A stretch of DNA of 35,401 bases, taken from contig JANYAB010000746.1 in assembly GCA_025355225.1 (NCBI GenBank), positions 1-35,401 of the forward strand. Reading direction: 5' to 3'. The DNA is from Bacteroidota bacterium (lineage in GTDB: Bacteria; Bacteroidota; Bacteroidia; Sphingobacteriales; Sphingobacteriaceae). Shown piece by piece: positions 16,212 to 32,657 of this stretch. A program made the position numbers and the translations under genes. Each line of letters begins with the position of its first letter. Position 1 is the stretch's first letter. The notes below the pieces were generated by a model. It worked only from the letters and a program-made list of their open reading frames with translations, was not told the origin of the DNA and did no database searches.

Positions 16212-17063
16212 TTATAATTTATTCGAATTAAGCACCGGATTTTGGCTGGCATTTACCTGGTAGGTATGTATTTCGTTGGCTTCGTTTACCTCTACAATTC
16301 GGTAGCCTCTATAGTCTGTACCCCAGTCGCCACCAATATGGGCGTCAAATAAATGCGGCAACTTGCCGGTATGGCGTACGCCATCCAACCTGTGATCATG
16401 CCCATGGAATACGGCCTTTACATTAGCGTAGACGTGCAGCAGGTTAACTGTTTCAGGGCAGTCAGTAAATGTTAATTGTTCTTCCTTCAACCATATTACA
16501 GGGGCGATATGTAATATTACAAATACGATTTTTTTGTCGGTAAATTTATCAAGCGCACTTTTAATAAAAGCATTATCGGGACACACATATCCGCCCTTTG
16601 TATCAGCTGTATTGGCCAATACAAAAGCGATATCATCATGCTCAAAAAAGTATTTGTCCTCGTACCCGAAAACATTTTTCCAAACTTGCGCGTCTGCAAA
16701 ATCATGGTTTCCCGGTATGGTGTGGTAGGGCACGCTGAGTTTATCCAGGTAGTTTTTCTTTATCTCGGGTAGCAATGCAGGTTGATTGTGCACCAGGTCG
16801 CCATTTATGATCACAAAATCAAGGTGATTTTTGCTATGGTCTTCGTTTAGCCATTTAACCATGTTGCCGGTATGCAAAACATAATCAGTACCCGCTTGTC
16901 CATAATGGATATCCGACGCCAGGGCGAAGCGTAATTTAAAATTCCCCTTTGTTTGCCTAACGTAATCGTTACTGTCTTTCGCAAACGTATTAATTGCCGG
17001 CAACAGGCTCAACCCGGCTATTCCGGCGATGGAAGTTTCTAAAAATTTTCTTCGGCTGCTCAT
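16212..17063 (-). CDS. Tat-exported calcineurin-like metallophosphoesterase
   Basis: SRRKFL twin-arginine signal; motifs SDIH, NGDL, GNHD, FHGHDH. Confidence 0.9.
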   Translation of the reverse strand: MSSRRKFLETSIAGIAGLSLLPAINTFAKDSNDYVRQTKGNFKLRFALASDIHYGQAGTDYVLHTGNMVKWLNEDHSKNHLDFVIINGDLVHNQPALLPEIKKNYLDKLSVPYHTIPGNHDFADAQVWKNVFGYEDKYFFEHDDIAFVLANTADTKGGYVCPDNAFIKSALDKFTDKKIVFVILHIAPVIWLKEEQLTFTDCPETVNLLHVYANVKAVFHGHDHRLDGVRHTGKLPHLFDAHIGGDWGTDYRGYRIVEVNEANEIHTYQVNASQNPVLNSNKL

Positions 17064-17113
17064 CTGTAGTATTGTTAAAGAAATATTTGTTCTAATTACA
17101 ATATTACTTATTT

Positions 17114-17204
17114 ATTGGTTGATTGAGTTATGCAGTTGATTAAGTTAAGTAGTGATCAAGCAAATATTCAGTCGAATCCAACTTAATCAACCCAATCAGC
17201 CAAT
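17114..17204. repeat. Intergenic palindromic element (GGTTGATT / AATCAACC units), copy 1
   Basis: ggttgattgagtt...gttgattaagttaagt then aacttaatcaacccaatcagccaat; 16-mer gttgattaagttaagt shared with 25012-25027. Confidence 0.7.
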
Positions 17205-17207
17205 CCC

Positions 17208-18320
17208 TCACTTACTTAACCCGGATTTTTCTTTAATCATCATAGTTTCGATGGCATTTCCCACCTCGTGATCTGAGCTTGTCTTAAAATCGAACCCCAG
17301 AAATTTCGCCATGCTTTGGGCCAATTGCTTGTGGTAGGTAGTGGTGGGTGTTTTAATTATTCCGTCGGCGGGTGTGTCGGGACCGATAACGGCCACCCAG
17401 GTTTGCTCGGAGTTTTTGATCCATGATCCATGATTTCGCCAGTTGTCCAATGGTAAATCACCACGCCCGTGGTCACAGGTTACAATCAGGGTAGTTTTGT
17501 TTTTATATGTTGGGTCAGTTTGGAGGTATTCCCATAATTCTTGTAAAAAAGCATCTTCCTGGTGTGCCTGGCTCAGGTACATTTTGTAGTTACCTGCATG
17601 GGCCATGTCATCAGTCTCATCAAAAGCAAGGTACAATACCCGTGGCTTGTATTGTTTTAAATATTCCTTACCAAACTCATAGGTCATAAAATCTATTCGG
17701 GTATCGCCCAGGTAAGTGGGCGCTTTGTGTTGTATTTCGTTTAGATATTTTAAACGCTCATCATTTGTTTTATTCTCAAAATCGGTATATCCCGCGTTTA
17801 CTTTTAATCCCGAACGCTGAACATTAAATATAGCCGGGAAAACCTCCCATGATGCGAACACAGCGACTTTGTTTTCAAAGCCTTTTTGCTTATTGAGATA
17901 CTCAAGTACATTGGTGTTGGGATTGAGCACCGGGTTATTACTATTTACCCTAACATCCGGGAAACCGGTAAATATTTCGTTATAACCGGGGTACGAAAAA
18001 TGATATTTATTAGCTACTTCATCAAAATTTCCCGTATCCCTGTCGCCATACAATTGCCCTTCAGTTACCATGGTCGACCAAAAAAAAGGCATCAGCAGCT
18101 TGCGGCGCTCCTCTGTTGTTTGGCTCCAGTATTTTTTACGTATTTCAGTCTTGTTTTCGGTGTATTTTGAGTTGATTAAAGCCGAATCTGCACCCCGGTA
18201 AAGCTCCTGCCAACGAAAACCGTCGAGCGTTACGATTACTATATTTTGTGTTTTATGGTTCTGTGCAAACAGTTGCGGTACAACTGCAAAGACTAAAAGC
18301 AATAAATTGAGTTTCTTCAT
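17208..18320 (-). CDS. Secreted alkaline-phosphatase-superfamily metalloenzyme
   Basis: TLDGFR, FSYPGY (putative Ser nucleophile), DETDDMAH, TCDHG metal ligands; start moved to ATG 18320 (MKKLNLLLL signal peptide). Confidence 0.8.
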   Translation of the reverse strand: MKKLNLLLLVFAVVPQLFAQNHKTQNIVIVTLDGFRWQELYRGADSALINSKYTENKTEIRKKYWSQTTEERRKLLMPFFWSTMVTEGQLYGDRDTGNFDEVANKYHFSYPGYNEIFTGFPDVRVNSNNPVLNPNTNVLEYLNKQKGFENKVAVFASWEVFPAIFNVQRSGLKVNAGYTDFENKTNDERLKYLNEIQHKAPTYLGDTRIDFMTYEFGKEYLKQYKPRVLYLAFDETDDMAHAGNYKMYLSQAHQEDAFLQELWEYLQTDPTYKNKTTLIVTCDHGRGDLPLDNWRNHGSWIKNSEQTWVAVIGPDTPADGIIKTPTTTYHKQLAQSMAKFLGFDFKTSSDHEVGNAIETMMIKEKSGLSK

Positions 18321-18343
18321 ATAGTGCTTGATTATATAACAAA

Positions 18344-18375
18344 AATAAAGGCGGGAGATTAAGCCCACCTTTATT
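18344..18375 (-). terminator. Intra-operon hairpin/terminator after susD
   Basis: Minus strand aataaaggtggg-cttaatct-cccgcctttatt followed by TTT. Confidence 0.6.
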
Positions 18376-18433
18376 GAAATTTAATTTAAAAATTGTTGGT
18401 AATTTGTCTATTGTTAGTAATTATTACCCTTGG

Positions 18434-20083
18434 TTATTTAAGTATCCACATTATACCATTGATGTCATCATTACCACCGTATTGGCTTGTTAATGCGGCA
18501 TTATAATTAACTGTGTTAGCGGTACGTTCACTTGATGGATACTGAAAACGTAAAGCTATACGCTGGCCATTATCCGTACCCGGCCCGGTTGTAAAGGTTG
18601 GTACGCCAGTTCTGCGATAGGTAAAATAAGATTCTAACCCCGAATGGCGGAACAACGCCAGGTATTTTTGCTGCAAAACCTGTGTTAACCCGTTGGCGCC
18701 TCCGGCATATTTTACCGCAGGCTGAGCGTAATAAGTTGCCCAGTCGAAATTTATAACATAGCTATCATAGTTTGAGGCGATTTTTACATCCGAAGAACCC
18801 GGACGGTAAAAATATGCTGTAAACGTACCGGTATTTGGTATGTTGTAATAGGCCATCGATGCCTGGATACCCGCTACATAGTGAGCCTCCGCATTACCAG
18901 TGGCCCAACCGCGGGTTATTCCTTCGGCTATATTAAATTCTTGCTCAGGGAAACCAATTTGTACGCTTGGCTCGCCTGTATAAGTTGAGTAATAATGTTT
19001 CCTGTTGAGAAAAGAATAGAATTGCAAGCCGGCATTATTATACATTATACCCAGGTCTAACCCGGGATCGGCGCCTACAAACGAATTAAAAGCAGTAGGA
19101 CTTTGATGCAGGGAGTCGACCAGGCGACGGGACGGCTCTGCTGTTACATAAACTCTCGGGTCCTGAAACTGGGTAAGTAAACTGATATAAGTTTGAGATG
19201 TATTTTGCCTTGAACCACTTTGACCAAAATTATCCGGGTTTTGCGGGTAAAAATTGGTAGGTGTTACAAAAGTATACTGCAGGTTATCTGCAGAACTTTG
19301 CAGTAGGGGATATTTTGCCGGGTTGCCAACAATTGCAGCAAATTGGGTAGGTATATTCAAATCAGGGTCTGATGTTACCTTCTTGCTTAATTGAAGAAGC
19401 AGCCTGAGATGGTATGCATTTACTATCTTTTGCCATTTTGTTAAGTCGCCGCCGAAATAGATATCACCTCCTAAAGTCGCCCCCAATCCTGTTCCACCAG
19501 TAGAGGGATTTGCTATTAATTGAGTGAGATCAGTATTGGCGCTCTCCAGCCATGTTAATGACTGCGCCATCACCGCTTTTTGCGAATCGTATTTTGGTGT
19601 GAGGTTACTCAGCCCTTTTAATGCCTCTGTCATCGGGATGTCGCCGCGCTCCAAACTCATTTTAGTGAAAAAATAAGCTCTGAAAAATTTGCCCAGGGCC
19701 TCATAAGGATTAACGGCAGCACCACCCGAAGCCGCCGCCTGTCCTTCCATAAGCATCACATTTTTTAAAGTAGCATAATAATCGGCATTGCTGTCAAAAT
19801 CGTAGGTATTGTTGCCATAGTAATTATAGTTGTAAATATAGTACTGGCACAGTATTTCATCTTTATTTGAAGTGCCTTTGTATACTACACCGTTTTGATT
19901 GCTGCTGGCATAAGCTCCATCCGGCAAATCCGGCAAATCATTCAGCACTCCGTTTAGAAGTAACGAAGCGGGAACGCTAAGTGGTACGTTCGGATTTTTA
20001 GTTAAATCCTCAAAACTCTTTTTACAACTGCTTACTGTCAGCAACATAAGTACCGGCAGTAAATAAATAAATATCTTTTTCAT
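18434..20083 (-). CDS. susD: SusD/RagB-family outer-membrane lipoprotein
   Basis: Lipobox VSSC then KKSFED, NPN; GDIPMTEA, PKYDSQ, GDLTKWQK, QKYLAL, RRTGVP, RFQYP motifs; directly downstream of susC; start 20083-20095. Confidence 0.92.
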   Translation of the reverse strand: MKKIFIYLLPVLMLLTVSSCKKSFEDLTKNPNVPLSVPASLLLNGVLNDLPDLPDGAYASSNQNGVVYKGTSNKDEILCQYYIYNYNYYGNNTYDFDSNADYYATLKNVMLMEGQAAASGGAAVNPYEALGKFFRAYFFTKMSLERGDIPMTEALKGLSNLTPKYDSQKAVMAQSLTWLESANTDLTQLIANPSTGGTGLGATLGGDIYFGGDLTKWQKIVNAYHLRLLLQLSKKVTSDPDLNIPTQFAAIVGNPAKYPLLQSSADNLQYTFVTPTNFYPQNPDNFGQSGSRQNTSQTYISLLTQFQDPRVYVTAEPSRRLVDSLHQSPTAFNSFVGADPGLDLGIMYNNAGLQFYSFLNRKHYYSTYTGEPSVQIGFPEQEFNIAEGITRGWATGNAEAHYVAGIQASMAYYNIPNTGTFTAYFYRPGSSDVKIASNYDSYVINFDWATYYAQPAVKYAGGANGLTQVLQQKYLALFRHSGLESYFTYRRTGVPTFTTGPGTDNGQRIALRFQYPSSERTANTVNYNAALTSQYGGNDDINGIMWILK

Positions 20084-20101
20084 GATCATTATCAATTTTA
20101 A

Positions 20102-23100
20102 TTAAAATGAAAGTTTTAAGTTAAGACCATAGCTGCGTACCGAAGGCGATTGCAAGCCGGTAAGAGACGTACGTGTATTATTGTATTGATCCAGGTCGAC
20201 ATCCTTAAACTCAGGGTTTTTATAAAAATACAATAGGTTACGACCGTAGATGGACGCAGATGCTTTTGTTATAAAGGTTTTTTCCAGCCATTTTTTTGGG
20301 AAATTATAATTAAGAGTTACCTCGCGCAGTTTTGCATAAGTTTTGCTCATTAAGTTGGCTTCTGTAACATTATAATATTCGCTCGCATACTCTTGCACAA
20401 AAGCGGTCTGGGTATTTTGTCCGTATTGCAGTGCGCTATAGTTTAAAACAGCGCCTGTTTTTGAATCGAAGTTAGGGGCAACGCCATTTGATATAACTAC
20501 TCCCTGGCCCACATATGAACCATTGTAACCGGCCTTACCAAAATTTACCCAATCCTGGTAACGTGCCGCGCCGAGCGCACCTTCTGCTGTAATGGCATTG
20601 GCACCGCCACGAACGGTTTTATTGTGTACATAGTCAGTAGTGACACCACCTACAGAACCGTCGAACTGGAATCCGAGGCTTAAATTCTTGTAGTGTACAT
20701 TATTATATATCGACCAGGTATAGTCAGCATCCAGGTGCCCGAGGTACTGCGGAACGGGGTTTACCAATGGTTCGCCATTGGTGCCGTTAATGATTTTACC
20801 GTCAGGTGTTCTTACGAATTTGCTGCCATAAAAATTATCAACGCGGTCACCTTGTTTAAAGAAAGTATTGTAAGTTGTTTGTCCCGGAGGCAGTTCGTTA
20901 TAAACTTCTTTATAGGTTGACCAATTCACCAATACGTCCCAGCCAAAACCGCCCAGGTTTTTAATTGGCGTGCCGCTCAATGAAATTTCATAGCCTGTTT
21001 TTTTAGTTTTTAAGGCGTTTAATAATTCATTATTATCGCCTGTAGCAGTAGATATAGCGTTATTCAAAATTTGAGGGCCATCTATATACTGAAACGCAGT
21101 GAGGCTTAATCCCAAACGATTTTGAATGAATTTAAAATCTAACCCTTCTTCGTAATTTACACGGGTTGAAGTTTTAATATTGTTTATATACAACGAATTG
21201 GGACCGTAACCTGCAGGTTGCCCGTTATAGGGTTTGCCCGCACCGTATGATGGGATAAGTGAATAATCCGGACCATTATATGGAGAATTATAGGTAGTGC
21301 CATAACCCAATGGATTATCAAATAATGAATTTCCTGTGCTGCCTCCAAATGCAGATATTGTGCTAAATGGTGCAGGCCCTATGGTCGGGCTCGTAGCATC
21401 CGATCGTACGTTGGAAAATGATGCGCGTGCCTTTAAGAAAGTTATAAAGTCGGGTAATTTAATATAATCTGATATTACAGTGGCACCCGATAAACTCGGA
21501 TAGTAATAAGTGGTCACATCCTGAAATGCCGACGATTTATCAATACGCCCGGTGCTCGACAGGGTTGCATATTTACCAAAACTCAAATCGACAGAATAGT
21601 AACCGCTTAATGTTCTCAATTGCGAATTAAAGCTGGTGGCCTGTAATGGATTTAATGAGTTACTGAATGAATAAACCGCAGGTATACTTAAATAGTCGGT
21701 TGAAACCCAGCTGGAACTGTATTTAAAGTTGCGTAAGTTACCACCTACCAAACCCGAAATATTCAAGAATTTATGAACAGTATAATCGAAATTCAATTTT
21801 AACTCTGTATTGTTTTCAAACAGGTCGCGGCGATCTTCGCGATAATCTCCCTTGTTACCTTCACGACCGTAGGGGTGTGCCGAGTAGGGCAGGTCTTCTG
21901 TGTGCAACAGGTTGTAAGTATCAATTTGCGATTTTAAACCTACATTTAAATGATCATCAATTTTAAAGTTACTTGAAAGGTATCCGTAGGTATCATTTTT
22001 TTGATGACCGCGGGTCCATATTTCCGTCAGGAACCAGGGATTATGATAACGGGTATATTCCTCAAAGTTAGATTGTACGTTTACTTTACCGGGCTGCCAA
22101 ATTGCCTTAATATCCGGTGCGTTCACATTCCAGTCAGCGCCTGTCCAGATAGCCATGTTGTAAATAATACTGTTCGGCCCGTATTGAACGTCCGGATAAT
22201 CATCTGTGCTCTGCCTGTTAAAATCAACGCTTGCTTCAAATTTTAAGCGCGAAGTTGGATTGAAAGCTGCATAAAAGTTAGCATTGGCAATATCCAGGTA
22301 CTGAGAAGGGATATAACTGTTTTGATGCTGTTGCGAAACTGAAAAGCGGGTAGTATAATTATCACCGTTAGCCGTTAAAGCAATGTCATTATTAGTTTGA
22401 TATCCGGTCCGTAAAAAGTTGGCCAGGTTGTTTGCGCCGCGCGCAGTCCATGGAGTTCCCTGGCGTACGCCATTAACTACCGGGCTATCATATTGTGGGA
22501 TCAATTGCCCGGCAAAATATGGGCCCCAAACGTCATAGTCGCTATCTACACCGCCCGGTGCGCCGCCTTTACCGTCAACAAACTCGTAAAAGGTATTTTC
22601 ACCTGGTCCGAATTTATTCTGTATCCGTGGAAACGCAACGAACCCTTTGTTTATTACTGTACTGCTGTTGATATCAACAGTAAGTCCTTTTTTAGCATTA
22701 TTGCCTTTTTTTGTGGTGATTAAAATAGCTCCGTTTGCTGCCCGGTTGCCATACAAAGCAGCAGCGGCAGGCCCTTTCAATACGGTGTAAGTATCTATGT
22801 CATCAGGACTCAAGTCGAAAGTGTCCGAGTTGATAGGTAAACCATCCACAACATATAGCGAGACCGTATTACCACGTATGGTTACATTTGGTACCCCCAA
22901 TATTTCGGAAGTTGCACCTACTGACAAACCGGCAACCTTACCTATCAAACCATTAATAGGATTAGGGTCGCGTGCAGTGGTTAATTGATCGCCATTAACG
23001 GTTTGGATGGCGTAGCCTATGCGCCGCGTTTCCTTTTTAACGCCCAAAGCGGTAACCACTACTTCGTTAAGCGACTTGCTGTCGGTTGTTAGGGAAACAT

Positions 23101-23389
23101 TGTAATTAGTCTGGTCGCCTATTGTAATGTCTCGGGTTACAAAACCAATGAACTTGAATGTAAGCACCTGGCCTTTGTTAACAGTAAATAAAAACCGTCC
23201 GTTGCCATCGGTCACTGTACCTTTAGAAGATCCTTTCAGCATTACGCTTACTCCGGGCAAAGGTTGTTGATTTTCGTCGGTCACTGTACCACCGATCTGG
23301 GTTTGCCCGAATAGAAGGATCGGGGAAAGACAGAATAACACTATCGTTACTACGGTCTTAAGTTGCATGTAAAGCTGTTTCATCTGCAT
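20102..23389 (-). CDS. susC: SusC/RagA-family TonB-dependent transporter
   Basis: N-terminal carboxypeptidase-regulatory-like domain, LNEVVVTALG, plug motif VLKGPAAAALYGNRAANGAILITTK, C-terminal F; start at ATG 23389 or 23383. Confidence 0.95.
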   Translation of the reverse strand: MQMKQLYMQLKTVVTIVLFCLSPILLFGQTQIGGTVTDENQQPLPGVSVMLKGSSKGTVTDGNGRFLFTVNKGQVLTFKFIGFVTRDITIGDQTNYNVSLTTDSKSLNEVVVTALGVKKETRRIGYAIQTVNGDQLTTARDPNPINGLIGKVAGLSVGATSEILGVPNVTIRGNTVSLYVVDGLPINSDTFDLSPDDIDTYTVLKGPAAAALYGNRAANGAILITTKKGNNAKKGLTVDINSSTVINKGFVAFPRIQNKFGPGENTFYEFVDGKGGAPGGVDSDYDVWGPYFAGQLIPQYDSPVVNGVRQGTPWTARGANNLANFLRTGYQTNNDIALTANGDNYTTRFSVSQQHQNSYIPSQYLDIANANFYAAFNPTSRLKFEASVDFNRQSTDDYPDVQYGPNSIIYNMAIWTGADWNVNAPDIKAIWQPGKVNVQSNFEEYTRYHNPWFLTEIWTRGHQKNDTYGYLSSNFKIDDHLNVGLKSQIDTYNLLHTEDLPYSAHPYGREGNKGDYREDRRDLFENNTELKLNFDYTVHKFLNISGLVGGNLRNFKYSSSWVSTDYLSIPAVYSFSNSLNPLQATSFNSQLRTLSGYYSVDLSFGKYATLSSTGRIDKSSAFQDVTTYYYPSLSGATVISDYIKLPDFITFLKARASFSNVRSDATSPTIGPAPFSTISAFGGSTGNSLFDNPLGYGTTYNSPYNGPDYSLIPSYGAGKPYNGQPAGYGPNSLYINNIKTSTRVNYEEGLDFKFIQNRLGLSLTAFQYIDGPQILNNAISTATGDNNELLNALKTKKTGYEISLSGTPIKNLGGFGWDVLVNWSTYKEVYNELPPGQTTYNTFFKQGDRVDNFYGSKFVRTPDGKIINGTNGEPLVNPVPQYLGHLDADYTWSIYNNVHYKNLSLGFQFDGSVGGVTTDYVHNKTVRGGANAITAEGALGAARYQDWVNFGKAGYNGSYVGQGVVISNGVAPNFDSKTGAVLNYSALQYGQNTQTAFVQEYASEYYNVTEANLMSKTYAKLREVTLNYNFPKKWLEKTFITKASASIYGRNLLYFYKNPEFKDVDLDQYNNTRTSLTGLQSPSVRSYGLNLKLSF

Positions 23390-23431
23390 GAATTTAATGG
23401 TGAGAGGAGGGAATTTTTCATACAGCAATGC

Positions 23432-23464
23432 TAAACTTAGTTTATTATTTGTAAACTAAGTTTA
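23432..23464. promoter_or_regulatory. Two palindromic operator sites TAAACTWAGTTTA in the susC promoter
   Basis: TAAACTTAGTTTA 23432-23444 and TAAACTAAGTTTA 23452-23464; first abuts the -7-like TAGCATTG on the minus strand. Confidence 0.75.
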
Positions 23465-23574
23465 TATTAAGGAAAGCTTAAGATTGCGTGTAACGCAGGT
23501 TAAGGAGGGTATGATTTTGTAACAAATTAATTATAATCGTCTTACAATTAATTAATGTTTAGGCAATGGGCGTA

Positions 23575-24150
23575 TTAGTTATTTTTATTTAGATGGCTTA
23601 TGGCCAGCAATTTAAGATAAGATAAATCATTTATTGGTTTATTTATCTCTTTGGCCTTATCATCCCAATAACGTAAACGAATAAATAATTCAGCATCGGG
23701 GTTTAATTCAAAATCAGCGGCCTCGCTTTCGTTCATCCGGCCACCCTGGAACTCAAGCGTCGCTTTGCTGGCTTCCGAAAGCTGATCATAGTATTCAGGA
23801 TATTTATAGGTAAGATATCTTTTAGCAATTACATGGCTCTCTACTAAAGTGGCAAGCCTTTCCGAAAATCCTCTTTCGCGCAAATAATCAGCGCCTAATC
23901 TTTCATGGTCAATATTACCAAAACCATCCATGCTTTTTTCGGCTTCGCCGGTTGCGCATAAATGCCCTATATCATGGAAAAATGCCGCCAGTATAACTTC
24001 ATCTTCAAAACCCTCTTCCTCGGCTAAAGCAGCTGCCTGCGACATGTGCTCCAGTTGCGAAACAGGTTCGCCAATGTAGTCTTCCCCGCCATGTTTTTCA
24101 TACAAGGCAAAAACTTCGTTAACAATCGTCTCGGAGGTTAATACAAGCAC
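23575..24150 (-). CDS. phnZ: HD-domain di-iron phosphonate oxygenase PhnZ
   Basis: YIGEPVSQLEH, HDIGH, DHE, HVIAKRYL, SEASKATL, QGG, LRYWDDKAK; start likely GTG 24150 because the track start 24174 falls inside a -7 box. Confidence 0.88.
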   Translation of the reverse strand: MLVLTSETIVNEVFALYEKHGGEDYIGEPVSQLEHMSQAAALAEEEGFEDEVILAAFFHDIGHLCATGEAEKSMDGFGNIDHERLGADYLRERGFSERLATLVESHVIAKRYLTYKYPEYYDQLSEASKATLEFQGGRMNESEAADFELNPDAELFIRLRYWDDKAKEINKPINDLSYLKLLAISHLNKNN

Positions 24151-24171
24151 TTGATAAAATTTAAATTCACA

Positions 24172-24179
24172 CAAATTTA
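24172..24179 (-). promoter_or_regulatory. Bacteroidota -7 element (TAAATTTG) for phnZ
   Basis: Exact TAnnTTTG on the minus strand, about 22 nt upstream of GTG 24150. Confidence 0.55.
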
Positions 24180-24417
24180 AAGATTCGACATTACCGCACT
24201 ATTAAATCAATATAAAGTATTCAACTGATTTGTTTAAAAAAAATACTGTCGATTTATTAAAAAACTTAAAAACTTAATTATTTACAGCAAATCAAATAAT
24301 ACTTACTTAATACGCTATATTCAATTTTTAAATTAATTTGCCCACGTTGTAAAACAATTACTTAAAGATTTAATTTGCGACGCACTATTACCAATATAAA
24401 TAACGTTTACCTGCCTT

Positions 24418-24996
24418 ATGGAAGATGATATACTGATACAGATCAGTAACCGTATTAAAGAGCGCCGCCGCGAAAAAAATATTACTGTACAAGAACTGGC
24501 CACCCTTGCAAATGTAAGCAAGGGCTTGATCTCACAGATCGAAAACAGCCGTACCATCCCATCGCTTATTGTGCTGATTGATATTATAAAGGCTCTCGAG
24601 ATCGATCTCAACGCGTTTTTCAAAGATATCCGCACCAGGAACAAACTTTCGCCAATCCTGGTAACCAGGAAAAATGACTATTACCGTTTTGAGAAGGAAC
24701 ACGCCATTGGCTTTCACTATCAGCGGATTTTAACCCGGTTTATTGATCGTTCAACGGTAGATATTGTGATCCTTGAACTCGAGCCCAACGCAACAAGGCC
24801 ACTTGTAGAGACCGATGCTTTTGAATACAAATACATATTGGCAGGGGAAATTGAATATCAGTTTAATGAGGAGCGGATACAGCTGAGCCAGGGCGATTCT
24901 ATTTTATTTGACGGGCGCATACCACATACACCAATAAACCTCGGCGGCCAAACAGCCAGTATGCTCGTTGTTTATTTTTTTGAGGAAAAGAAGTGA
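24418..24996 (+). CDS. XRE-family HTH plus cupin transcriptional regulator
   Basis: TVQELATLANVSKGLISQIEN HTH; cupin EYKYILAGEI...GDSILFDGRIPH. Confidence 0.92.
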   Translation: MEDDILIQISNRIKERRREKNITVQELATLANVSKGLISQIENSRTIPSLIVLIDIIKALEIDLNAFFKDIRTRNKLSPILVTRKNDYYRFEKEHAIGFHYQRILTRFIDRSTVDIVILELEPNATRPLVETDAFEYKYILAGEIEYQFNEERIQLSQGDSILFDGRIPHTPINLGGQTASMLVVYFFEEKK

Positions 24997-24998
24997 AG

Positions 24999-25137
24999 GG
25001 TGGTTGCTTGGGTTGATTAAGTTAAGTGGTTGATTAGGTTGGATCGAGTTTAGACGGAGTAATAAAACGTCTTTTTAATAAACCACTCACTCAATCAACT
25101 ATTCACCTAATCAACCAAATCATCAACTAATTAACCA
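24999..25137. repeat. Intergenic palindromic element (GGTTGATT / AATCAACC units), copy 2
   Basis: Left arm ggttgcttgggttgattaagttaagtggttgattaggtt; right arm aaccactcactcaatcaact...cctaatcaacc. Confidence 0.7.
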
Positions 25138-25156
25138 AACCTTAACACAAATTTCG

Positions 25157-25186
25157 TTTGATGGTAATAAACTAAGTTTAGTATTG
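25157..25186 (+). promoter_or_regulatory. Promoter (-33 TTTG, -7 TAGTATTG) with operator TAAACTAAGTTTA in the spacer
   Basis: TTTG 25157-25160, palindrome 25168-25180, TAGTATTG 25179-25186; 23/24 nt identical to the susC promoter segment. Confidence 0.75.
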
Positions 25187-25209
25187 CTCAACATTTCAAC
25201 GACAATTAT

Positions 25210-25896
25210 ATGCTCATTAAATTAGTGGTTTTTGATATAGCCGGCACAACGGTTAAAGATGATCATAACGTTAGCAAAGCTTTTCAGGCGGCGCTTAATA
25301 AGTACAATTATGAAGTGCCGCTCGAAATGATCAACCCGCTGATGGGCTACGAGAAAAACCAGGCGATCACACAGATGCTGCATCTTCACGAAAAAGACGA
25401 ATCAAAGATCACAGCAGAACTTGTAGATGAAATACACCGGGAGTTTGTGCGGCAAATGATCGATTTTTACCGATCAGCACCCGGCATTGAAGCGCTTCCA
25501 AATGTTGAAGAAACTTTTGCCACACTGCATCAGATGGGTATTGGGGTAGGCATTAATACCGGTTTCTCGCGGGATATTGCCGAAACAATCATCAATCGCC
25601 TTAAATGGCGCGAAAAGGGTTTAATAGATCACCTCATTGGTTCCGATGAAGTTGAACTGGGCCGCCCGCACCCTTATATGATCCAAAAAATGATGCTGGA
25701 TGCTGGTATCACTGATCCGTTGGAAGTTGTAAAAGTAGGCGATACCGAGGTTGATGTGCGCGAAGGGCAAAATTCAGGTTGCCGCTTTGTGATCGGGGTT
25801 ACGACTGGAATCTTCACCCGTGAGGAACTGGAGCCTTACCATCCAACACACATCATTGATGATATGGCACAGGTAATTGATATAATTAGCCAATAG
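25210..25896 (+). CDS. phnX: HAD-superfamily phosphonatase-like hydrolase (PhnX-like)
   Basis: FDIAGTT (DxAGT as in phosphonatase), LMGYEK cap lysine, NTGF, GRPHPYM, KVGDTEVD; shorter than canonical PhnX so the symbol is tentative. Confidence 0.75.
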   Translation: MLIKLVVFDIAGTTVKDDHNVSKAFQAALNKYNYEVPLEMINPLMGYEKNQAITQMLHLHEKDESKITAELVDEIHREFVRQMIDFYRSAPGIEALPNVEETFATLHQMGIGVGINTGFSRDIAETIINRLKWREKGLIDHLIGSDEVELGRPHPYMIQKMMLDAGITDPLEVVKVGDTEVDVREGQNSGCRFVIGVTTGIFTREELEPYHPTHIIDDMAQVIDIISQ

Positions 25897-25897
25897 C

Positions 25898-27214
25898 ATG
25901 AAACTGACAGATCAGCTTAGAATAAAAGTTGCTAAGTGGCCTTACGTATTGCTGTCCCTAATGGCTGCGGTTTCTTCATTTGGGGCTTACACGTCTATGT
26001 ATGCCTTTCGCAAAGCATTTTCTGCAGGCACTTTTACAGGGCAGCAATACTTTCACGTCGATTATAAGGTTTGGCTGGTGATAGCGCAAATAATTGGCTA
26101 TACCCTAAGCAAATTTTATGGCATTAAATTTATTTCCGAATTAAAACCGGGTCAGCGGGCCAAATATATTCTTTTGTTAGTCGGAATCGCCTGGCTGGCA
26201 TTATTGTTTTTTGCCATCGTTCCGGCGCCATACAATATTATATTTTTATTTATAAATGGGTTCCCGCTTGGATTGATCTGGGGCCTGGTGTTTGGATATC
26301 TTGAAGGACGTAAATCGACCGAGTTTATGGCAGCGGTATTGTCCATTAGCTTGATTTTTGCATCTGGCTTTGTAAAAACGATAGCCCGTATGACGATGGG
26401 GTCATTCCATGTAAGCGAATATAACATGCCTTTTCTGATGGGAGCCTTGTTCATTATCCCGCTGCTGTTATTTGTATTTCTCCTTGAATTGATGCCCCCG
26501 CCAACGGCGGAGGATATTCGATTGCGAACCAAACGTTTGCCGATGAATGCTGCAGAACGTAAGAGTTTTTTAAGGCGCTTTTTACCAGGCATCATACTTA
26601 CGCTTATTATTTATGTGCTGTTAACCATTATGCGGGATGTAAGGGATAGTTTTGAAGTGGAAATTTGGGCGAGCCTGGGCGTAAAAGACAATACTATTTA
26701 TGCGAAAATCGATTCCATTATATCAGTGGCAGTATTGGTAGCCATGAGTTTGCTTATCCTTGTAAAACGAAACCTCAAAGCCTTCAGCATTATTCATATC
26801 ATGATTATATTTGGTTGTGTCCTGATCGGCGCAGCCACTGGCTTCTTTGCTTTGGGATTAATCAGCCCAATGGTTTGGATGACCTTAGCAGGGCTAGGCC
26901 TTTATCTCGGTTACGTGCCCTATAATGCTGTTTTCTTCGAACGGCTACTGGCTTCGTTTCATTACAAGGGTAATGTGGGGTTTTTAATTTATGTGGCCGA
27001 TTCGATAGGTTATTTAGGTAGTGTTAGTGTTCTTTTGGTAAAAGAACTCGGCCAGCCTGGGATAAGCTGGGGGACCTTTTTTAAAAACGGAGTACTGACG
27101 GTTGCTGTGATAGGCGGAATATGTGCAACCTTATCATTGCTGTATTTTTTAAGTAGCGCCCGTAAACAAGTTAAGGACCCTGCAGAGCAACAACTTAATA
27201 TTTCAACCGCATAA
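25898..27214 (+). CDS. Polytopic MFS-like membrane protein (DUF5690-like), probable transporter
   Basis: About 11-12 hydrophobic helices; motifs MYAFRK, GYTLSKFYGIK, YLEGR, FFERL, NVGFLIYVADSIGYLGS; family name from recollection. Confidence 0.75.
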   Translation: MKLTDQLRIKVAKWPYVLLSLMAAVSSFGAYTSMYAFRKAFSAGTFTGQQYFHVDYKVWLVIAQIIGYTLSKFYGIKFISELKPGQRAKYILLLVGIAWLALLFFAIVPAPYNIIFLFINGFPLGLIWGLVFGYLEGRKSTEFMAAVLSISLIFASGFVKTIARMTMGSFHVSEYNMPFLMGALFIIPLLLFVFLLELMPPPTAEDIRLRTKRLPMNAAERKSFLRRFLPGIILTLIIYVLLTIMRDVRDSFEVEIWASLGVKDNTIYAKIDSIISVAVLVAMSLLILVKRNLKAFSIIHIMIIFGCVLIGAATGFFALGLISPMVWMTLAGLGLYLGYVPYNAVFFERLLASFHYKGNVGFLIYVADSIGYLGSVSVLLVKELGQPGISWGTFFKNGVLTVAVIGGICATLSLLYFLSSARKQVKDPAEQQLNISTA

Positions 27215-28380
27215 TGCAATCATCAGGAATGCCAAATAAAAACTTTCCATCCAGGGCGCCGCGACGTTCCGCAATAATCATTGGCGCTGGTATTGTTGGT
27301 CTTGCAATGGCCCGTGCACTGGCAATACGGGGTTATAAGGTTACAGTTTTTGAACGCAACGAACGTGCTGTTGGTGCATCCATCCGAAATTTTGGTATGA
27401 TATGGCCCATTGGGCAAGCTACAGGGCCGCTTTTTGAAAGGGCAATTCTGTCGCGAAGTATTTGGAAAGAAATTTGCGCCGAAGCCAATATTTGGCATAA
27501 CGAAGTTGGCTCACTTCATTTGGCTTACCATGATGATGAATTGCAGGTGATAGCCGAATATGTTCAGGCTAACCGGATGCACCGCGATTGCGCGTTGCTT
27601 ACCCCTTTGCAAACTTTAGTAAAATCTCCCGCTGTTAACCCGGATAACCTGAAAGGGGCATTATGGAGCAGCGAGGAAATGATCGTAGAATCGAGGGTAG
27701 CAATAGGGGAGATAGCCAAATATTTAGCTGAAAAATACAATGTCGAATTTCATTGGAACACAGCCATCAGCCAGATACAATACCCCAAAGCGATGTCAGG
27801 TAAACGTAGTTGGGAAGCCGATGAAATATTTGTTTGCAGCGGGGCGGATTTTGAAACACTTTATCCGGAATTATTTTTAGAAACCAGCATTACCAAATGC
27901 AAATTGCAAATGATGAGGCTGGTTGCCCAGCCTGACGGGTGGCGTATTGGTCCGTCATTATGCGGCGGTTTGTCAATGATTCATTATCCGGGCTTTCAGT
28001 CGGCAGCTTCTTTATCTTTGTTAAAGAAACGTTACAAAGAACAATATGGCGAATACCTGGAATGGGGCATACATGTAATGGTTTCGCAAAACGGATCTGG
28101 CGAGCTAACCGTTGGCGATTCGCACGAATACGGTTTGGTACACGATCCATTTGATAAAGAATTTATTAATAATTTAATAACAACCTACTTACATAGTTTC
28201 GCCAGTTTTAAAGATTGGCGGCTACTACAGTCCTGGAACGGAATATATCCTAAAATGATGAATGGACAAACGGAACTGATCATTGAAACAGAGCCCGGCG
28301 TAACCGTTATAAACGGCCTTGGTGGTAATGGGATGACCTTATCATTTGGATTGTGTGAGCAGTTTATAGAAGGCAGGTGA
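27214..28380 (+). CDS. DAO-family FAD-dependent oxidoreductase (TIGR03364-like, phosphonate-cluster associated)
   Basis: GAGIVG FAD motif, GASIRNFG, CKLQMM, GDSHEY, GGNGMTLSFG; TAATG overlap with the upstream gene. Confidence 0.85.
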   Translation: MQSSGMPNKNFPSRAPRRSAIIIGAGIVGLAMARALAIRGYKVTVFERNERAVGASIRNFGMIWPIGQATGPLFERAILSRSIWKEICAEANIWHNEVGSLHLAYHDDELQVIAEYVQANRMHRDCALLTPLQTLVKSPAVNPDNLKGALWSSEEMIVESRVAIGEIAKYLAEKYNVEFHWNTAISQIQYPKAMSGKRSWEADEIFVCSGADFETLYPELFLETSITKCKLQMMRLVAQPDGWRIGPSLCGGLSMIHYPGFQSAASLSLLKKRYKEQYGEYLEWGIHVMVSQNGSGELTVGDSHEYGLVHDPFDKEFINNLITTYLHSFASFKDWRLLQSWNGIYPKMMNGQTELIIETEPGVTVINGLGGNGMTLSFGLCEQFIEGR

Positions 28381-28382
28381 GG

Positions 28383-28493
28383 TTGTACGTTGTAAGTTCT
28401 ACGTTTTACGTACTTGCAATTTACGACAAAGCAATAAATATCAGGCGCTATTTTCTGACGCTTACTTATAACGTAAAACGTATAACTTACAAC
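28383..28493. repeat. Heptamer tandem inverted-repeat element
   Basis: ttgtacg-ttgtaag-ttctacg-ttttacg and cttataa-cgtaaaa-cgtataa-cttacaa; 28389-28411 vs 28471-28493 complementary at 22/23 nt. Confidence 0.8.
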
Positions 28494-28500
28494 TAGTAAA

Positions 28501-31071
28501 ATGACCGATTCCCGCAGAGATTTTTTAAAGAAAGCAGCTTTATTAGCAGGTGCAACAAGTTTGGCAAATGTAATGCCGGCTTCCATTCAAAAAGCGCTGG
28601 CAATTAACGCCCCTGAAGGTAGTACCTACCTCGATGCCGAACATATTGTGATATTAATGCAGGAAAATCGCTCATTTGATCATTGTTTTGGTACGTTGAA
28701 GGGTGTTCGCGGCTTTAATGACCCGCGAGCTATTGATTTACCGAATAGAAATAAAGTTTGGCTGCAATCGAACAAGGCAGGCGAAACGTATGCGCCTTTT
28801 CACCTCGACATAAAAAACACCAAAGCTACGTGGATGGATTCATTACCCCATTCCTGGGCCAACCAGGTAAATGCACGCAACGATGGCAAATTCGATCAAT
28901 GGTTGGAAAATAAGCGAAACAGTAATCCCGGATACGCTGATATGCCTTTAACACTAGGTTATTATAATCGCGAAGATATTCCCTTTTACTATACACTTGC
29001 CGATGCTTTTACGGTATGTGATCAGAATTTTTGTTCTGCTTTGACAGGCACCAATCCCAATCGACTTTATTTTTGGACTGGCACCATAAGGGAAGAGCAG
29101 ATCGAAAACTCCCGCGCCAATGTGTGGAATGATGATATGGACTATGGTACTTTGAAATGGGCCACTTTCCCGGAGCGGCTCGAAGATCAGGGCATATCAT
29201 GGAAATGCTACCAAAATGAAGTTGCGATAGACACTGGTTTTGAGGGTGAAGAAGATCCCTGGTTATCCAATTTCCAGGACAATCCATTAGAGTTTTTTGA
29301 ACAGTACAATATCCACTTGCACGAAAAACATATCCAGGCAATGGAAAAAAGATCCGCCGAATTGCCTGGTAAAATAGACGAATTGCAAAAAAAGATTGAT
29401 TCACTGCCGGCAGGTGATGCCCATATCGATCACTTAAAACATCAATTGAAAGGGTTACAGCACTATCTTGAAGCTGTAAAAAAGGAAAAGGACACCTATA
29501 AGCCCGGTCAGTTTGAAAAATTATCAAATCGTGATAAGAGTTTGCATTTAAAGGCATTTAACACGAATTTGAATGATCCGGATCATAGGCAGCTTACTAC
29601 TTTGACTTATGATGATGACGGCACAAAGCGCGAGGTACAAGTACCAAAAGGGGATGTGCTGCACCAGTTCAGGGTCGATGTGAAAACCGGGAAATTACCA
29701 ACCGTATCATGGCTTACCGCACCTGAGAATTTTAGCGACCATCCAAGTTCAGCCTGGTATGGCGCCTGGTACGTATCTGAAGTGATGGATATTCTTACCC
29801 AAAACCCGGAGGTATGGAAAAAAACCATCTTTATTCTTACCTATGACGAAAATGATGGTTATTTTGATCATGTACCACCTTTTGTTGCGCCCAACTCACA
29901 TAAAATTGGCACCGGTGCTGTTTCAAAAGGCATAGATACCCGAGTTGAATTTGTAACTCTTGATCAGGAAAAAGAAAGAAAAGGCTTCCCGGAAAAATAT
30001 GACCGTGAAAGCGCTATTGGTTTAGGCTTTCGGGTGCCAATGGTTATTGCCTCGCCCTGGAGCAAAGGAGGCTGGGTGAATTCGGAAATTTTCGATCATA
30101 CCTCAACTTTGCAGTTTTTAGAAGAATTTCTATCCAAAAAAACCGGGAAAAAGGTTCAGGAACCAAACATCAGCGATTGGAGGCGCACCGTTTGTGGCAA
30201 CCTTACTTCGGTGTTCAGGCCTTATAAAGGGGAAGATATAGCAGCCCCCGAATTTGTAAAGAAGGATGCTTTTATGGAGAGTATACATAAAGCAAAATTC
30301 AAAAAACTACCCACTGATTTTAAGCTGCTGACCAAAGAAGAAATTGATCAGATCAATCGTGATCCTCATTCCTCGCAATATATGCCGCAACAGGAAAATG
30401 GCATACGGCAATCATGCGCTTTACCTTACGAACTATATGTGGACGGCCAATTAAACGTCGCTAAAACGGCTTTTGAAATAAAATTTAAAGCAGACAATAA
30501 AGTTTTTGGCGATAAGGCATCAGGTGCCCCTTTTAATGTTTATGCACCTGGTGGTTACCTTCAGCAAAAGGAAAGCGAGCATCAGGCTTTTGAAAATGTA
30601 CGCACATGGGCTTACGGGTTAATGGCGGGCGACACGTTGACCGATAACTGGCCCATCCACGAGTTTGAAGATAGTAATTATCATTTGAGGGTTTACGGGC
30701 CGAACGGATTTTTCCGCGAATTTAAGGGCAATGCGGCTGACCCCGCTTTCGATACTATTTTTGATTACCAACATAATATTGCAAAAAGCAATACATTCAC
30801 AGGTAATGTGGAGATAAAACTAAGGAACTTAAGCAGCCAACCACATTCGATTGAAATAATTGACCATGCCTATAAAAGCAACAACCAAAAAAGGACATTG
30901 ACAGCCTCAGCCACAGTCAATTTGGTTTTAAACCTCGAAAAAAGCTATGGCTGGTATGATTTTAGCATTAAAGTCGCTGGAAATAATTCATTTGAGAAGA
31001 GGTATGCCGGACGTGTGGAAACCGGCAAATCCAGCTTTAGCGATCCGTTTATGGGTAAGGTGATTATTTAA
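28501..31071 (+). CDS. plc: Tat-exported phospholipase C (PlcH/PlcN phosphoesterase family)
   Basis: SRRDFLK Tat signal; MQENRSFDH, TGTNPNR nucleophile Thr, SDHP, YDENDGYFDHV, GFRVP, FDHTS; C-terminal DUF756-like YGPNGFFR and GWYDF. Confidence 0.93.
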   Translation: MTDSRRDFLKKAALLAGATSLANVMPASIQKALAINAPEGSTYLDAEHIVILMQENRSFDHCFGTLKGVRGFNDPRAIDLPNRNKVWLQSNKAGETYAPFHLDIKNTKATWMDSLPHSWANQVNARNDGKFDQWLENKRNSNPGYADMPLTLGYYNREDIPFYYTLADAFTVCDQNFCSALTGTNPNRLYFWTGTIREEQIENSRANVWNDDMDYGTLKWATFPERLEDQGISWKCYQNEVAIDTGFEGEEDPWLSNFQDNPLEFFEQYNIHLHEKHIQAMEKRSAELPGKIDELQKKIDSLPAGDAHIDHLKHQLKGLQHYLEAVKKEKDTYKPGQFEKLSNRDKSLHLKAFNTNLNDPDHRQLTTLTYDDDGTKREVQVPKGDVLHQFRVDVKTGKLPTVSWLTAPENFSDHPSSAWYGAWYVSEVMDILTQNPEVWKKTIFILTYDENDGYFDHVPPFVAPNSHKIGTGAVSKGIDTRVEFVTLDQEKERKGFPEKYDRESAIGLGFRVPMVIASPWSKGGWVNSEIFDHTSTLQFLEEFLSKKTGKKVQEPNISDWRRTVCGNLTSVFRPYKGEDIAAPEFVKKDAFMESIHKAKFKKLPTDFKLLTKEEIDQINRDPHSSQYMPQQENGIRQSCALPYELYVDGQLNVAKTAFEIKFKADNKVFGDKASGAPFNVYAPGGYLQQKESEHQAFENVRTWAYGLMAGDTLTDNWPIHEFEDSNYHLRVYGPNGFFREFKGNAADPAFDTIFDYQHNIAKSNTFTGNVEIKLRNLSSQPHSIEIIDHAYKSNNQKRTLTASATVNLVLNLEKSYGWYDFSIKVAGNNSFEKRYAGRVETGKSSFSDPFMGKVII

Positions 31072-31457: not shown

Positions 31458-31966
31458 GAAGTGGCAATTTTTCACAAACCTATGTTATTTTAAGATAAAT
31501 TCAATGTTATCATTATGTTAACATATATTGTAATATTAACTAATCCATAAAATATTAAAATATTTTTTTATTTCATCGTCATTCACAAATATTTGTAATT
31601 GTTTGAACTCCAATTAACTTGTTTATATTTTGAGCATTACTAAAAATATTATTTAATAAATGTCTAATAAATATTTACTTGTCGGTATTTTTTTCTGCGC
31701 CGGGTTTAACAATTGAATAATTCAGAGTGAAAACCCCGACTTTCATGCGTCTGTGCTGCAAGAGTAGTTTAGTTAATAAGCTACACAAATTCCATTAAAC
31801 TGATCATAACTGGCTGATATATTTAATTTTAGGATTAATATAGTTTCTGTAACTGAATTTATTTTAATTTTAAATTAAAATAAAAGACTGCAATACAGAG
31901 CGATATGCAGGTTATCTGAAAACGCATTCGTTTTCGGGCACTTGCTTTGCAAGTGTGACAAGTACA

Positions 31967-32527
31967 ATGCAGCTTTTTATAAAAAACATGGTATGCACCA
32001 GGTGCAAAATGGTGCTTAGATTCGAATTAGAAAAACTCGGACTTCATTGCACATCAATCGAGTTAGGCAGAGCCGAAACTGAGGAAATTGTTTCCACTGA
32101 ACAGATCGAAAAAATTAAGATCGCTTTACTTCAATCCGGATTAGAGTTAATAGATAACAAGAAAAGTATCCTGATAGAAAAAATTAAACATGTCATCATT
32201 GAGATGGTCAACGGTTCTGATGAGCGGTTAAAGACAAATTTTTCATATTATCTGGCAATAAAATTAAATCACGACTATACTTATCTTGCTAATATATTTT
32301 CGGAAGTATCAGGCATAACCATTGGACACTTTATCATCCTGCATAAAATCCAAAGGGTAAAACAGCTCATCGGATACGACGAACTCAATCTTACAGAGAT
32401 TTCATGGAAGCTGCACTACAGCAGCGTGGCGCATTTATCTTCCCAATTTAAAAAGGTTACCGGTGTAACCCCCTCCCGCTTTAAGCAACTCGAACACAGA
32501 GGCCTGATGGCCCTTGAGAATGTGTGA
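31967..32527 (+). CDS. AraC-family regulator with N-terminal CxxC (KNMVCTRC) domain
   Basis: IKNMVCTRC; YTYLANIFS, LNLTEIS...YSSVAHLSSQFKKVTGVTPS AraC HTH; start ATG 31967 (or GTG 31955). Confidence 0.9.
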   Translation: MQLFIKNMVCTRCKMVLRFELEKLGLHCTSIELGRAETEEIVSTEQIEKIKIALLQSGLELIDNKKSILIEKIKHVIIEMVNGSDERLKTNFSYYLAIKLNHDYTYLANIFSEVSGITIGHFIILHKIQRVKQLIGYDELNLTEISWKLHYSSVAHLSSQFKKVTGVTPSRFKQLEHRGLMALENV

Positions 32528-32587: not shown

Positions 32588-32657
32588 TATTGCCCGAATT
32601 CTTGTCAATAAAGAGTAAGGAAGTTTAAACATTTACCATTCATCTAAAAAAACTACT

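What the first reader, a model, noticed from the sequence alone, without database searches (positions are those of the whole stretch)
16212..31071. PUL-like SusCD locus for phosphonolipid/aminophosphonate scavenging
Seen: ten contiguous genes in two divergent arms. Left arm: phnZ, susC, susD, alkaline-phosphatase-superfamily enzyme, Tat metallophosphoesterase. Right arm: XRE-cupin, PhnX-like, DUF5690-like, FAD oxidoreductase, Tat phospholipase C. No glycoside hydrolase lies within it. Established: SusCD pairs import macromolecule fragments; PhnZ and PhnX cleave C-P bonds; PlcH/N enzymes release lipid head groups. Inference: a full pipeline in which phosphonolipids or other phosphonate esters (e.g. 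ceramide aminoethylphosphonate and N-methyl or hydroxy variants) are captured by SusCD, the head group is released by three exported esterases, imported by the membrane protein and converted to Pi by oxidase plus PhnX or by PhnZ. I know of no characterised locus combining SusCD, PLC and C-P cleavage, but cannot search the literature. It has no PhnCDE, PhnW or C-P lyase.
Basis: partly seen in the sequence, partly recalled or inferred. Interest (0 to 1): 0.88.

Follow-up and report, generated by a model that had tools for sequence, protein, structure and literature searches.

The report
Co-regulated SusCD aminophosphonate uptake locus
A Mucilaginibacter-like bacterium carries a conserved ten-gene cluster whose outer-membrane importer genes and phosphonate-breakdown genes share one palindromic DNA motif, so it likely captures aminoethylphosphonate-type compounds (possibly cut from lipids) and frees their phosphate; this kind of cluster has been noted in print but no test of one was found.

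Summary
All ten genes are present as described. The arms belong together. Close SusD relatives keep phnZ (24 of 25 loci), XRE (23), DUF5690 (21) and the FAD oxidase (20), and many Chitinophagaceae carry them as one operon. A palindrome, TAAACTWAGTTTA, occurs exactly three times in the 5.16-Mb genome: twice before susC and once before the PhnX-like gene. It is conserved in Sphingobacteriaceae, follows gene rearrangements and tracks the XRE-cupin gene, so it is likely that regulator's operator. DUF5690 models as an MFS transporter closest to sugar-phosphate exchangers. The oxidase is a TIGR03364/PbfD-type enzyme. PhnZ alternates with the HAEP lyase PbfA, pointing to AEP, N-methyl-AEP and (R)-HAEP as substrates. 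The lipid part is weaker: phospholipase C is accessory (11 of 20 loci), and relatives swap in GDPD and other esterases of ordinary phosphodiesters. The concept is in print: Flavobacterium Pus loci with phnX and dao (2019/2021), PbfD-PhnX chemistry (2023), and PusCD1 importing inositol-lipid head groups, with aminophosphonate-linked pusCD loci flagged as unexplored (2026). Verdict: a new, untested variant of a known kind. The operator, transporter fold and PhnZ/PbfA swap make it directly testable.

The parts
16212..17063 (-). Tat-type metallophosphoesterase (PF00149); accessory
   Evidence: N-terminal SRRKFL in sequence; in 7 of 25 close loci
17208..18368 (-). Exported alkaline-phosphatase-superfamily enzyme (likely start 18320) with a predicted Ser nucleophile (S125 of the listed ORF); no close characterised relative
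   Evidence: (candidate site residues conserved in 47-48 of 48); in 18 of 25 close loci
18344..18375 (-). Terminator-like hairpin between susD and the AP-superfamily gene
   Evidence: 12-pair stem; consensus match only
18434..20095 (-). SusD lipoprotein (PF12771); its wider clade sits mostly beside phosphorus-ester or phosphonate genes
20102..23428 (-). SusC TonB-dependent transporter (likely start 23389 or 23383)
   Evidence: TIGR04056 over cut-off
23432..23444 (.). Palindromic site 1 (TAAACTTAGTTTA), likely operator of susCD
   Evidence: (25.9 bits)
23452..23464 (.). Palindromic site 2 (TAAACTAAGTTTA), likely operator of susCD
   Evidence: 24.2 bits
23575..24174 (-). PhnZ-type HD di-iron oxygenase; predicted (R)-HAEP to glycine + Pi
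   Evidence: 4MLM E 2.7e-43; 13 site residues in 69 of 69, one in 68 of 69
24418..24996 (+). XRE-cupin regulator; likely binds the palindrome
   Evidence: co-occurrence with the site
25168..25180 (.). Palindromic site 3 (TAAACTAAGTTTA), likely operator of the catabolic operon
   Evidence: 25.9 bits
25210..25896 (+). PhnX-like HAD hydrolase; keeps the cap lysine (K49), has Ala where B. cereus PhnX has His
   Evidence: K in 79 of 79; Ala in 78 of 79
25898..27214 (+). DUF5690 inner-membrane protein with a predicted MFS fold; likely aminophosphonate permease
   Evidence: pLDDT 91.5; best match G6PT1/SLC37A4, E 2.9e-9, TM 0.63
27214..28380 (+). TIGR03364 (PbfD-type) FAD amine oxidase; predicted AEP or N-methyl-AEP to phosphonoacetaldehyde
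   Evidence: PMC10590968
28501..31071 (+). Tat-type PC-specific phospholipase C (TIGR03396); accessory
   Evidence: in 11 of 20 complete close loci

Best explanation
The locus is a conserved two-arm gene cluster sharing one palindromic site, and it likely works as an XRE-controlled aminophosphonate utilisation system that imports AEP-type compounds and releases their phosphate. Inferred steps: (1) SusCD would carry AEP, N-methyl-AEP and (R)-1-hydroxy-AEP, free or still ester-linked to lipid or glycan fragments, across the outer membrane. (2) Exported esterases (AP-superfamily enzyme, metallophosphoesterase, PLC; GDPD in relatives) would cut ester links in the periplasm. (3) The DUF5690 MFS protein would move the free phosphonate into the cytoplasm. 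(4) The PbfD-type oxidase would turn AEP or N-methyl-AEP into phosphonoacetaldehyde, which the PhnX-like enzyme would hydrolyse to acetaldehyde + Pi. (5) PhnZ would cleave (R)-HAEP to glycine + Pi, the job PbfA starts in related loci. (6) The XRE-cupin protein would repress susCD and the catabolic operon at the palindrome until a substrate binds its cupin domain. Shown here: gene content, co-conservation, the shared site, conserved catalytic residues and a fold prediction. Not shown: any activity, ligand, binding or expression.
For: SusD-anchored loci (28 at >=57% identity, 25 with >=1 kb beyond susC): phnZ 24, XRE 23, DUF5690 21, oxidase 20, PhnX-like 16. Oxidase-anchored loci (82 of 98 with full flanks): DUF5690 77, PhnX-like 67, PhnZ 59, XRE 54, close SusD 46. 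Many Chitinophagaceae loci read susC-susD-AP-phnZ-phnX-like-DUF5690-oxidase on one strand. The palindrome has 3 exact copies in the genome, all in this locus. A matrix trained without the window ranks them first to third (24-26 bits; next 18.4). The site lies before susC in 25 of 28 close loci, and in 0 of 18 distant SusD loci that lack XRE. It moves to DUF5690 when the PhnX-like gene is lost and stays on both arms when they are unlinked (L175, L136). PhnZ and PbfA co-occur in 0 of 82 loci at the thresholds used (59 PhnZ only, 11 PbfA only), and PbfA loci fall in at least 4 places on the oxidase tree. Both enzymes act on (R)-HAEP (PMC10574752). The three Pbf oxidoreductases tested in vitro oxidise N-methyl-AEP, the two PbfD also AEP, and none oxidises sarcosine, taurine or beta-alanine (PMC10590968 section 10).
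Against: The PhnX-like protein is below both family cut-offs, lacks the His of B. cereus PhnX, and is missing from 9 of 25 close loci, although all 5 such genomes tested hold a 36-39% paralogue. Only 2 of those 5 paralogues have the site within 1.5 kb. No site lies before phnZ, the XRE gene or the esterases in the window (best other score 5.7). The site is not seen in most Chitinophagaceae loci. Two close SusD loci (L180, L181) lack both site and XRE. L147 has PbfA plus a distant (38%) phnZ-like gene. The oxidase is only about 30% identical to Acinetobacter homologues and was not compared with the tested PbfD2. Many MFS families score close to G6PT1. The genomes are kin, and matrix training genomes may overlap the test loci.
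Confidence: 0.62

Rival explanations
1. SusCD and the exported esterases take up ordinary phosphate-diester head groups (glycerophosphocholine, glycerophosphoethanolamine, phosphocholine), and the aminophosphonate genes are a co-regulated second module for look-alike amine head groups.
For: GDPD is in 15 of 25 close loci and PC-PLC in 11 of 20; both families are known for P-O esters (established knowledge). More distant SusD paralogues sit beside GDPD-like or tyrosine-phosphatase-like genes with no phosphonate genes (motif reading by eye). The one PusCD with a solved ligand handles inositol-lipid head groups (bioRxiv 10.64898/2026.09.03.749221).
Against: The fixed partners of this SusD are the phosphonate genes; every esterase can be missing. 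Several loci have SusCD plus phosphonate genes and no detected esterase (L105, L120, L187).
Confidence: 0.24
2. SusCD captures phosphonylated glycan or glycolipid fragments (AEP- or HAEP-decorated surface polymers), so SusD binds a sugar and the esterases strip the phosphonate.
For: SusD proteins are mostly glycan binders, and PusD1/2 bind through a sugar ring. The AP-superfamily enzyme has no characterised relative. AEP and HAEP in amoebal lipophosphonoglycan is recalled; one search confirmed only that the polymer exists.
Against: No glycoside hydrolase is a regular neighbour in the loci clustered. Lipid-type esterases recur instead.
Confidence: 0.1
3. The arms are neighbours by chance: a generic phosphatase-linked SusCD next to a standard PbfD-PhnX-PhnZ cassette.
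For: The arms are split in some genomes (L041 and L175). 31 of 82 oxidase loci have no SusD within about 10 kb.
Against: The shared palindrome is kept even when the arms are unlinked. A single-operon form exists in Chitinophagaceae. phnZ lies beside 24 of 25 close susCD pairs.
Confidence: 0.03

Closest known systems
Phosphate utilisation systems (Pus; PusCD4/5/6 of Flavobacterium; Lidbury et al., PMC8115612 and bioRxiv 10.1101/719427)
   Same: SusCD with phosphoesterases, phosphonate-degrading genes and inner-membrane transporters in place of CAZymes. The preprint's Fig. 4C legend lists phnX, dao oxidoreductase, gdpd, dgdA and gpmI1, which read like this gene set.
   Different: Those were seen as low-Pi-induced proteins in Flavobacterium, with no substrate assigned. 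Here PhnZ, PC-PLC, an XRE-cupin regulator and a palindromic site are present. Orthology of this SusD to PusD4/5/6 could not be tested (figures and supplements not readable).
Pus1/PusCD1 of Flavobacterium johnsoniae (bioRxiv 10.64898/2026.09.03.749221)
   Same: SusCD with a phospholipase C and a calcineurin-like esterase; shown to support growth on a lipid head group as P source.
   Different: Its substrate is phosphatidylinositol or glycerophosphoinositol, it uses a PI-PLC and an ECF sigma pair, and it has no C-P cleavage genes. Its Discussion names aminophosphonate-linked pusCD loci as still to be explored.
PbfD-PhnX pathway (Zangelmi et al. 2023, PMC10590968), with PhnZ and PbfA for (R)-HAEP
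   Same: TIGR03364-type oxidase with a PhnX-type hydrolase and no PhnW; PbfD homologues are reported in the FCB group.
   Different: That work is on cytoplasmic enzymes only. The parts read do not mention SusCD, DUF5690, esterases or regulation, and the tested enzymes are from Acinetobacter and Mariniblastus.
Organophosphate:Pi antiporters (GlpT, UhpT, SLC37/G6PT1)
   Same: MFS fold; best structural matches are G6PT1. Invariant Y35-x-x-R38-K39 on helix 1 resembles the GlpT R45/K46 motif (recalled).
   Different: At most 19% identity; no sequence match to PDB chains; substrate and coupling untested.

Membership tests
Phosphate utilisation system (Pus) | SusC/SusD pair | tested here: met
Phosphate utilisation system (Pus) | Co-located phosphoesterases or phosphonate enzymes rather than CAZymes | tested here: met
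Phosphate utilisation system (Pus) | Induced by phosphate depletion | not testable with these tools
   no RNA holder listed; the local palindrome suggests substrate control instead (inference)
Phosphate utilisation system (Pus) | SusD orthologous to a described PusD1-6 | not testable with these tools
   supplements unreadable; PDB matches are labelled SusD homologues or glycan binders
Classical polysaccharide utilisation locus | CAZyme genes in the locus | tested here: not met
PbfD (TIGR03364) amine oxidase | TIGR03364 score over cut-off | tested here: met
   432 vs 285 bits; PbfD1 carries this annotation
PbfD (TIGR03364) amine oxidase | Placement in the PbfD clade with tested enzymes; oxidation of AEP or N-methyl-AEP | not tested
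   PbfD2 sequence and Table S1 not obtained; about 30% to Acinetobacter homologues
PhnX phosphonatase (TIGR01422) | Family cut-off | tested here: not met
   119 vs 220 bits; TIGR03351 also under cut-off, 190.7 vs 218.9
PhnX phosphonatase (TIGR01422) | DxAGT motif, cap Schiff-base lysine, Arg in motif III | tested here: met
   D9, G12, T13, K49, R152 in 79 of 79; roles recalled
PhnX phosphonatase (TIGR01422) | His three residues after the cap lysine | tested here: not met
   Ala in 78 of 79; role recalled
PhnZ (HAEP oxygenase) | Di-iron ligands plus the Tyr/Glu pair and phosphonate-binding residues of PhnZ | tested here: met
   roles recalled
PhnZ (HAEP oxygenase) | TIGR03276 cut-off | tested here: inconclusive
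   213.5 vs 214.6 bits
PhnY*/PhnZ oxidative pathway | Linked PhnY*-type hydroxylase | tested here: not met
   none in the locus; 5 PhyH-family genes lie on other contigs, function not tested
Organophosphate:Pi antiporter (MFS) | MFS fold with a basic motif on helix 1 | tested here: inconclusive
   fold met; other MFS families score nearly as well

The most novel reading that the evidence does not exclude
This is a dedicated phosphonolipid utilisation locus. SusCD captures AEP-, N-methyl-AEP- or HAEP-bearing lipid fragments, PLC and the uncharacterised AP-superfamily enzyme free the head group, DUF5690 is a new family of aminophosphonate permease, and an aminophosphonate-sensing XRE-cupin repressor acts at TAAACTWAGTTTA. 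It would be the missing route from conjugated natural phosphonates to free AEP in soil and freshwater Bacteroidota.
Probability: 0.3. Interest if true: 0.72.

Novelty: new variant of a known kind. Interest (0 to 1): 0.5.

Why it matters
Natural AEP-type phosphonates largely occur bound to lipids and glycans (established knowledge), yet the characterised catabolic enzymes act on free compounds. The authors who solved the first organophosphorus SusCD name aminophosphonate-linked SusCD loci as unexplored. This locus gives a concrete test case. Close SusD relatives occur in 23 of 36 genus genomes drawn, including cultured Mucilaginibacter and Pedobacter species. It also offers a predicted operator and regulator, a candidate function for DUF5690, and a substrate prediction from the PhnZ/PbfA swap.

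Tried and rejected
ESM Atlas look-ups for DUF5690 and the AP-superfamily enzyme gave no answer. No RNA holder was listed. Sequence searches of PDB found no close relative of the AP-superfamily enzyme or DUF5690, and Foldseek gave only superfamily-level matches for the former. The recurring 272-aa neighbour was first suspected to be PhnY*; it is GDPD. The idea that the oxidase acts on the PhnZ product (glycine or sarcosine) was set aside because tested Pbf enzymes ignore sarcosine and the genomes lacking the linked PhnX-like gene hold a paralogue (5 of 5). A global Pho-box reading of the palindrome was rejected because no other genome site scores above 18.4 bits. The sigma-70 promoter scan is uninformative for Bacteroidota. 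The Mucilaginibacter RB-TnSeq supplement, cut when stored, had no hit for DUF5690, TIGR03364 or phosphonate. The careful oxidase tree did not finish; the quick tree was used. Supplements of PMC10590968 and PMC8115612 were unreadable and may already show Bacteroidota loci of this type.
Full report
Observation. The oxidase, PLC and SusC pass their curated cut-offs. Phn-HD misses by 1.1 bits and the PhnX-like protein by 28 bits. Nine of the ten genes have no close paralogue in the genome; the AP-superfamily gene has one at 78% on contig C23. No PhnW, PbfA or PhnJ passes cut-off in this 86.5%-complete genome, and among four near-complete relatives one has PhnJ. Five PhyH-family genes lie on other contigs and were not tested as PhnY*. 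The closest named homologues are Mucilaginibacter, so the source is taken to be that genus or near it (inference).

Co-conservation from the SusD side. SusD matched 26 of 36 genus genomes (23 as close orthologues; tallies include unpublished G002, not otherwise used) and 0 of 24 other families. It matched 27 of 200 family genomes. I fetched 33 of the 36 matches (left out: the window and two from G002) and 18 of the 28 non-window matches, giving 51 loci. Twenty-eight have SusD at 57% identity or more, and 25 of these reach at least 1 kb beyond susC. They carry phnZ 24, XRE 23, DUF5690 21, oxidase 20, AP 18, PhnX-like 16, GDPD 15, PLC 11, the metallophosphoesterase 7 and a beta-propeller phosphoesterase 3 (three are cut short by contig ends). 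PLC is in 11 of 20 loci with the oxidase and a long flank. The fixed partners of this SusCD are therefore the phosphonate genes, and the exported esterases are a swappable set. The 23 more distant SusD loci sit with phosphonate genes, GDPD-like or tyrosine-phosphatase-like genes (read by eye from motifs), or C-P lyase-like genes; a few have no such neighbour.

Co-conservation from the oxidase side. The oxidase matched 18 of 400 phylum genomes. I took those 18 and the best 80 of 580 confirmed places in named genomes. Of these 98, 82 have full flanks: DUF5690 77, PhnX-like 67, PhnZ 59, XRE 54, close SusD 46 (any SusD 51), AP 40, PLC 35, PbfA 11 (PbfA identified over cut-off). Many Chitinophagaceae loci run susC-susD-AP-phnZ-phnX-like-DUF5690-oxidase on one strand. 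PhnZ and PbfA occur together in 0 of 82 loci at the thresholds used. L147 is an exception below threshold, with PbfA and a 38% phnZ-like gene. PbfA loci fall in at least four places on a quick tree of 47 oxidases. Both enzymes act on (R)-HAEP (PMC10574752, passages), so the swap suggests (R)-HAEP is a substrate and explains PhnZ without a linked PhnY* (inference). The sets may overlap and the genomes are kin, so the counts are descriptive.

A shared palindrome. Aligning intergenic regions showed a conserved block before the PhnX-like gene. Its core, TAAACTWAGTTTA, occurs exactly three times in the 5.16-Mb genome: at 23432 and 23452 before susC and at 25168 before the PhnX-like gene. An order-3 model expects 0.43 copies genome-wide, but the motif was chosen after seeing the locus. 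A matrix built from 39 distinct sites of other genomes ranks these three first (25.9, 25.9, 24.2 bits; next 18.4). A site of 17 bits or more precedes susC in 25 of 28 close loci. The three misses are L031 (split susC near a contig end) and L180 and L181, which lack XRE. Among distant SusD loci the site is before susC in 0 of 18 without XRE and 3 of 5 with XRE; the other two have it at the head of a rearranged operon. Training genomes may overlap these loci. The site moves to DUF5690 when the PhnX-like gene is lost, and both arms keep it when they are on different contigs (L136, L175). It precedes an unlinked PhnX-like paralogue in 2 of 5 genomes. Four of five genomes whose oxidase locus has the site but no XRE hold an XRE orthologue elsewhere. 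Against a simple picture: no site lies before phnZ, the XRE gene or the esterases, and most Chitinophagaceae loci lack it. That XRE binds it, and that it represses, is inference.

The proteins. The PhnX-like enzyme keeps the nucleophilic Asp, the cap lysine and the motif-III Arg in 79 of 79 homologues, but has Ala for the following His in 78 of 79 (roles recalled). PhnZ keeps 13 of 14 checked site residues in 69 of 69 homologues. DUF5690 models with pLDDT 91.5 as an MFS protein. Its first seven structural matches are G6PT1/SLC37A4 (E 2.9e-9, TM 0.63) and GlpT ranks 31st; other MFS families are close behind. It has an invariant Y-x-x-R-K on helix 1. The AP-superfamily enzyme models well (pLDDT 91.5) but has no close characterised relative. 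PLC is a full-length PC-PLC. Export signals were read by eye from the sequence; TIGR01409 gives only a weak hit for PLC.

What is known. [quoted passage not shown] Its preprint 10.1101/719427 (passages) lists phnX, dao, gdpd, dgdA and gpmI1 in the neighbourhood figure legend. bioRxiv 10.64898/2026.09.03.749221 (parts 1-2 of 6, Discussion, passages) shows that PusCD1/2 are needed for growth on phosphatidylinositol, and says aminophosphonate-linked pusCD loci should be explored. PMC10590968 (sections 8, 10, 15, passages) establishes PbfD chemistry and PhnW-less PbfD-PhnX pathways. PMC13576164, PMC12366243, PMC13440311 and PMC3964302 were seen as passages only. Ten literature searches listed no paper that tests a SusCD aminophosphonate locus, assigns DUF5690 to phosphonate transport or describes this site. 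The library lacks most subscription papers, one listed preprint mentioning DUF5690 (on Pandoravirus proteins) was not read, and the figures and supplements of the Pus and PbfD papers were not seen.

Verdict. The locus is real, conserved and likely one regulon for aminophosphonate uptake and breakdown (0.62). Whether the imported form is a phosphonolipid fragment is open (about 0.3); uptake of ordinary phosphodiester head groups is the main rival (0.24). It works like a Pus locus and meets the gene-content part of that definition; phosphate induction and PusD orthology could not be tested. It is a new variant of a known kind. Interest is 0.5 because the concept and the enzymes are in print, while the operator, regulator, transporter fold and PhnZ/PbfA swap turn a flagged open question into specific experiments.

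Noticed in passing
G000:C371:2504-2546 and G000:C525:12191-12233: A near-identical inverted repeat of about 40 bp (two half-sites 22 bp apart) lies upstream of unrelated-looking genes on two contigs. It scores 17-18 bits with the locus matrix but has a different core, so it likely belongs to another regulator.
   Followed up: partly
G000:C23:1299-2435: A second copy of the AP-superfamily gene (78% identical), next to a regulator-like ORF.
   Followed up: partly
window 31955-34535: An AraC regulator followed by a protein with Big_5, three Flg_new_2 repeats and an ice-binding domain PF11999; not part of the locus.
   Followed up: no
L054, L055, L090, L189, L190: A second cassette type with DUF5690, a zinc alcohol dehydrogenase (TIGR03366, under cut-off; resembles the HEP dehydrogenase PbfG of PMC13576164) and a PhnX-like paralogue.
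   Followed up: partly
L198-L207: Distant SusD paralogues (34-40%) are followed by a 272-287-aa tyrosine-phosphatase-like ORF (motif read by eye); in L203 the pair lies between DUF5690 and C-P lyase-like genes. This may be a further phosphorus-uptake SusCD type.
   Followed up: no
window 25000-25140: An AT-rich imperfect inverted repeat after the XRE gene, poorly conserved in relatives; possibly a terminator.
   Followed up: no
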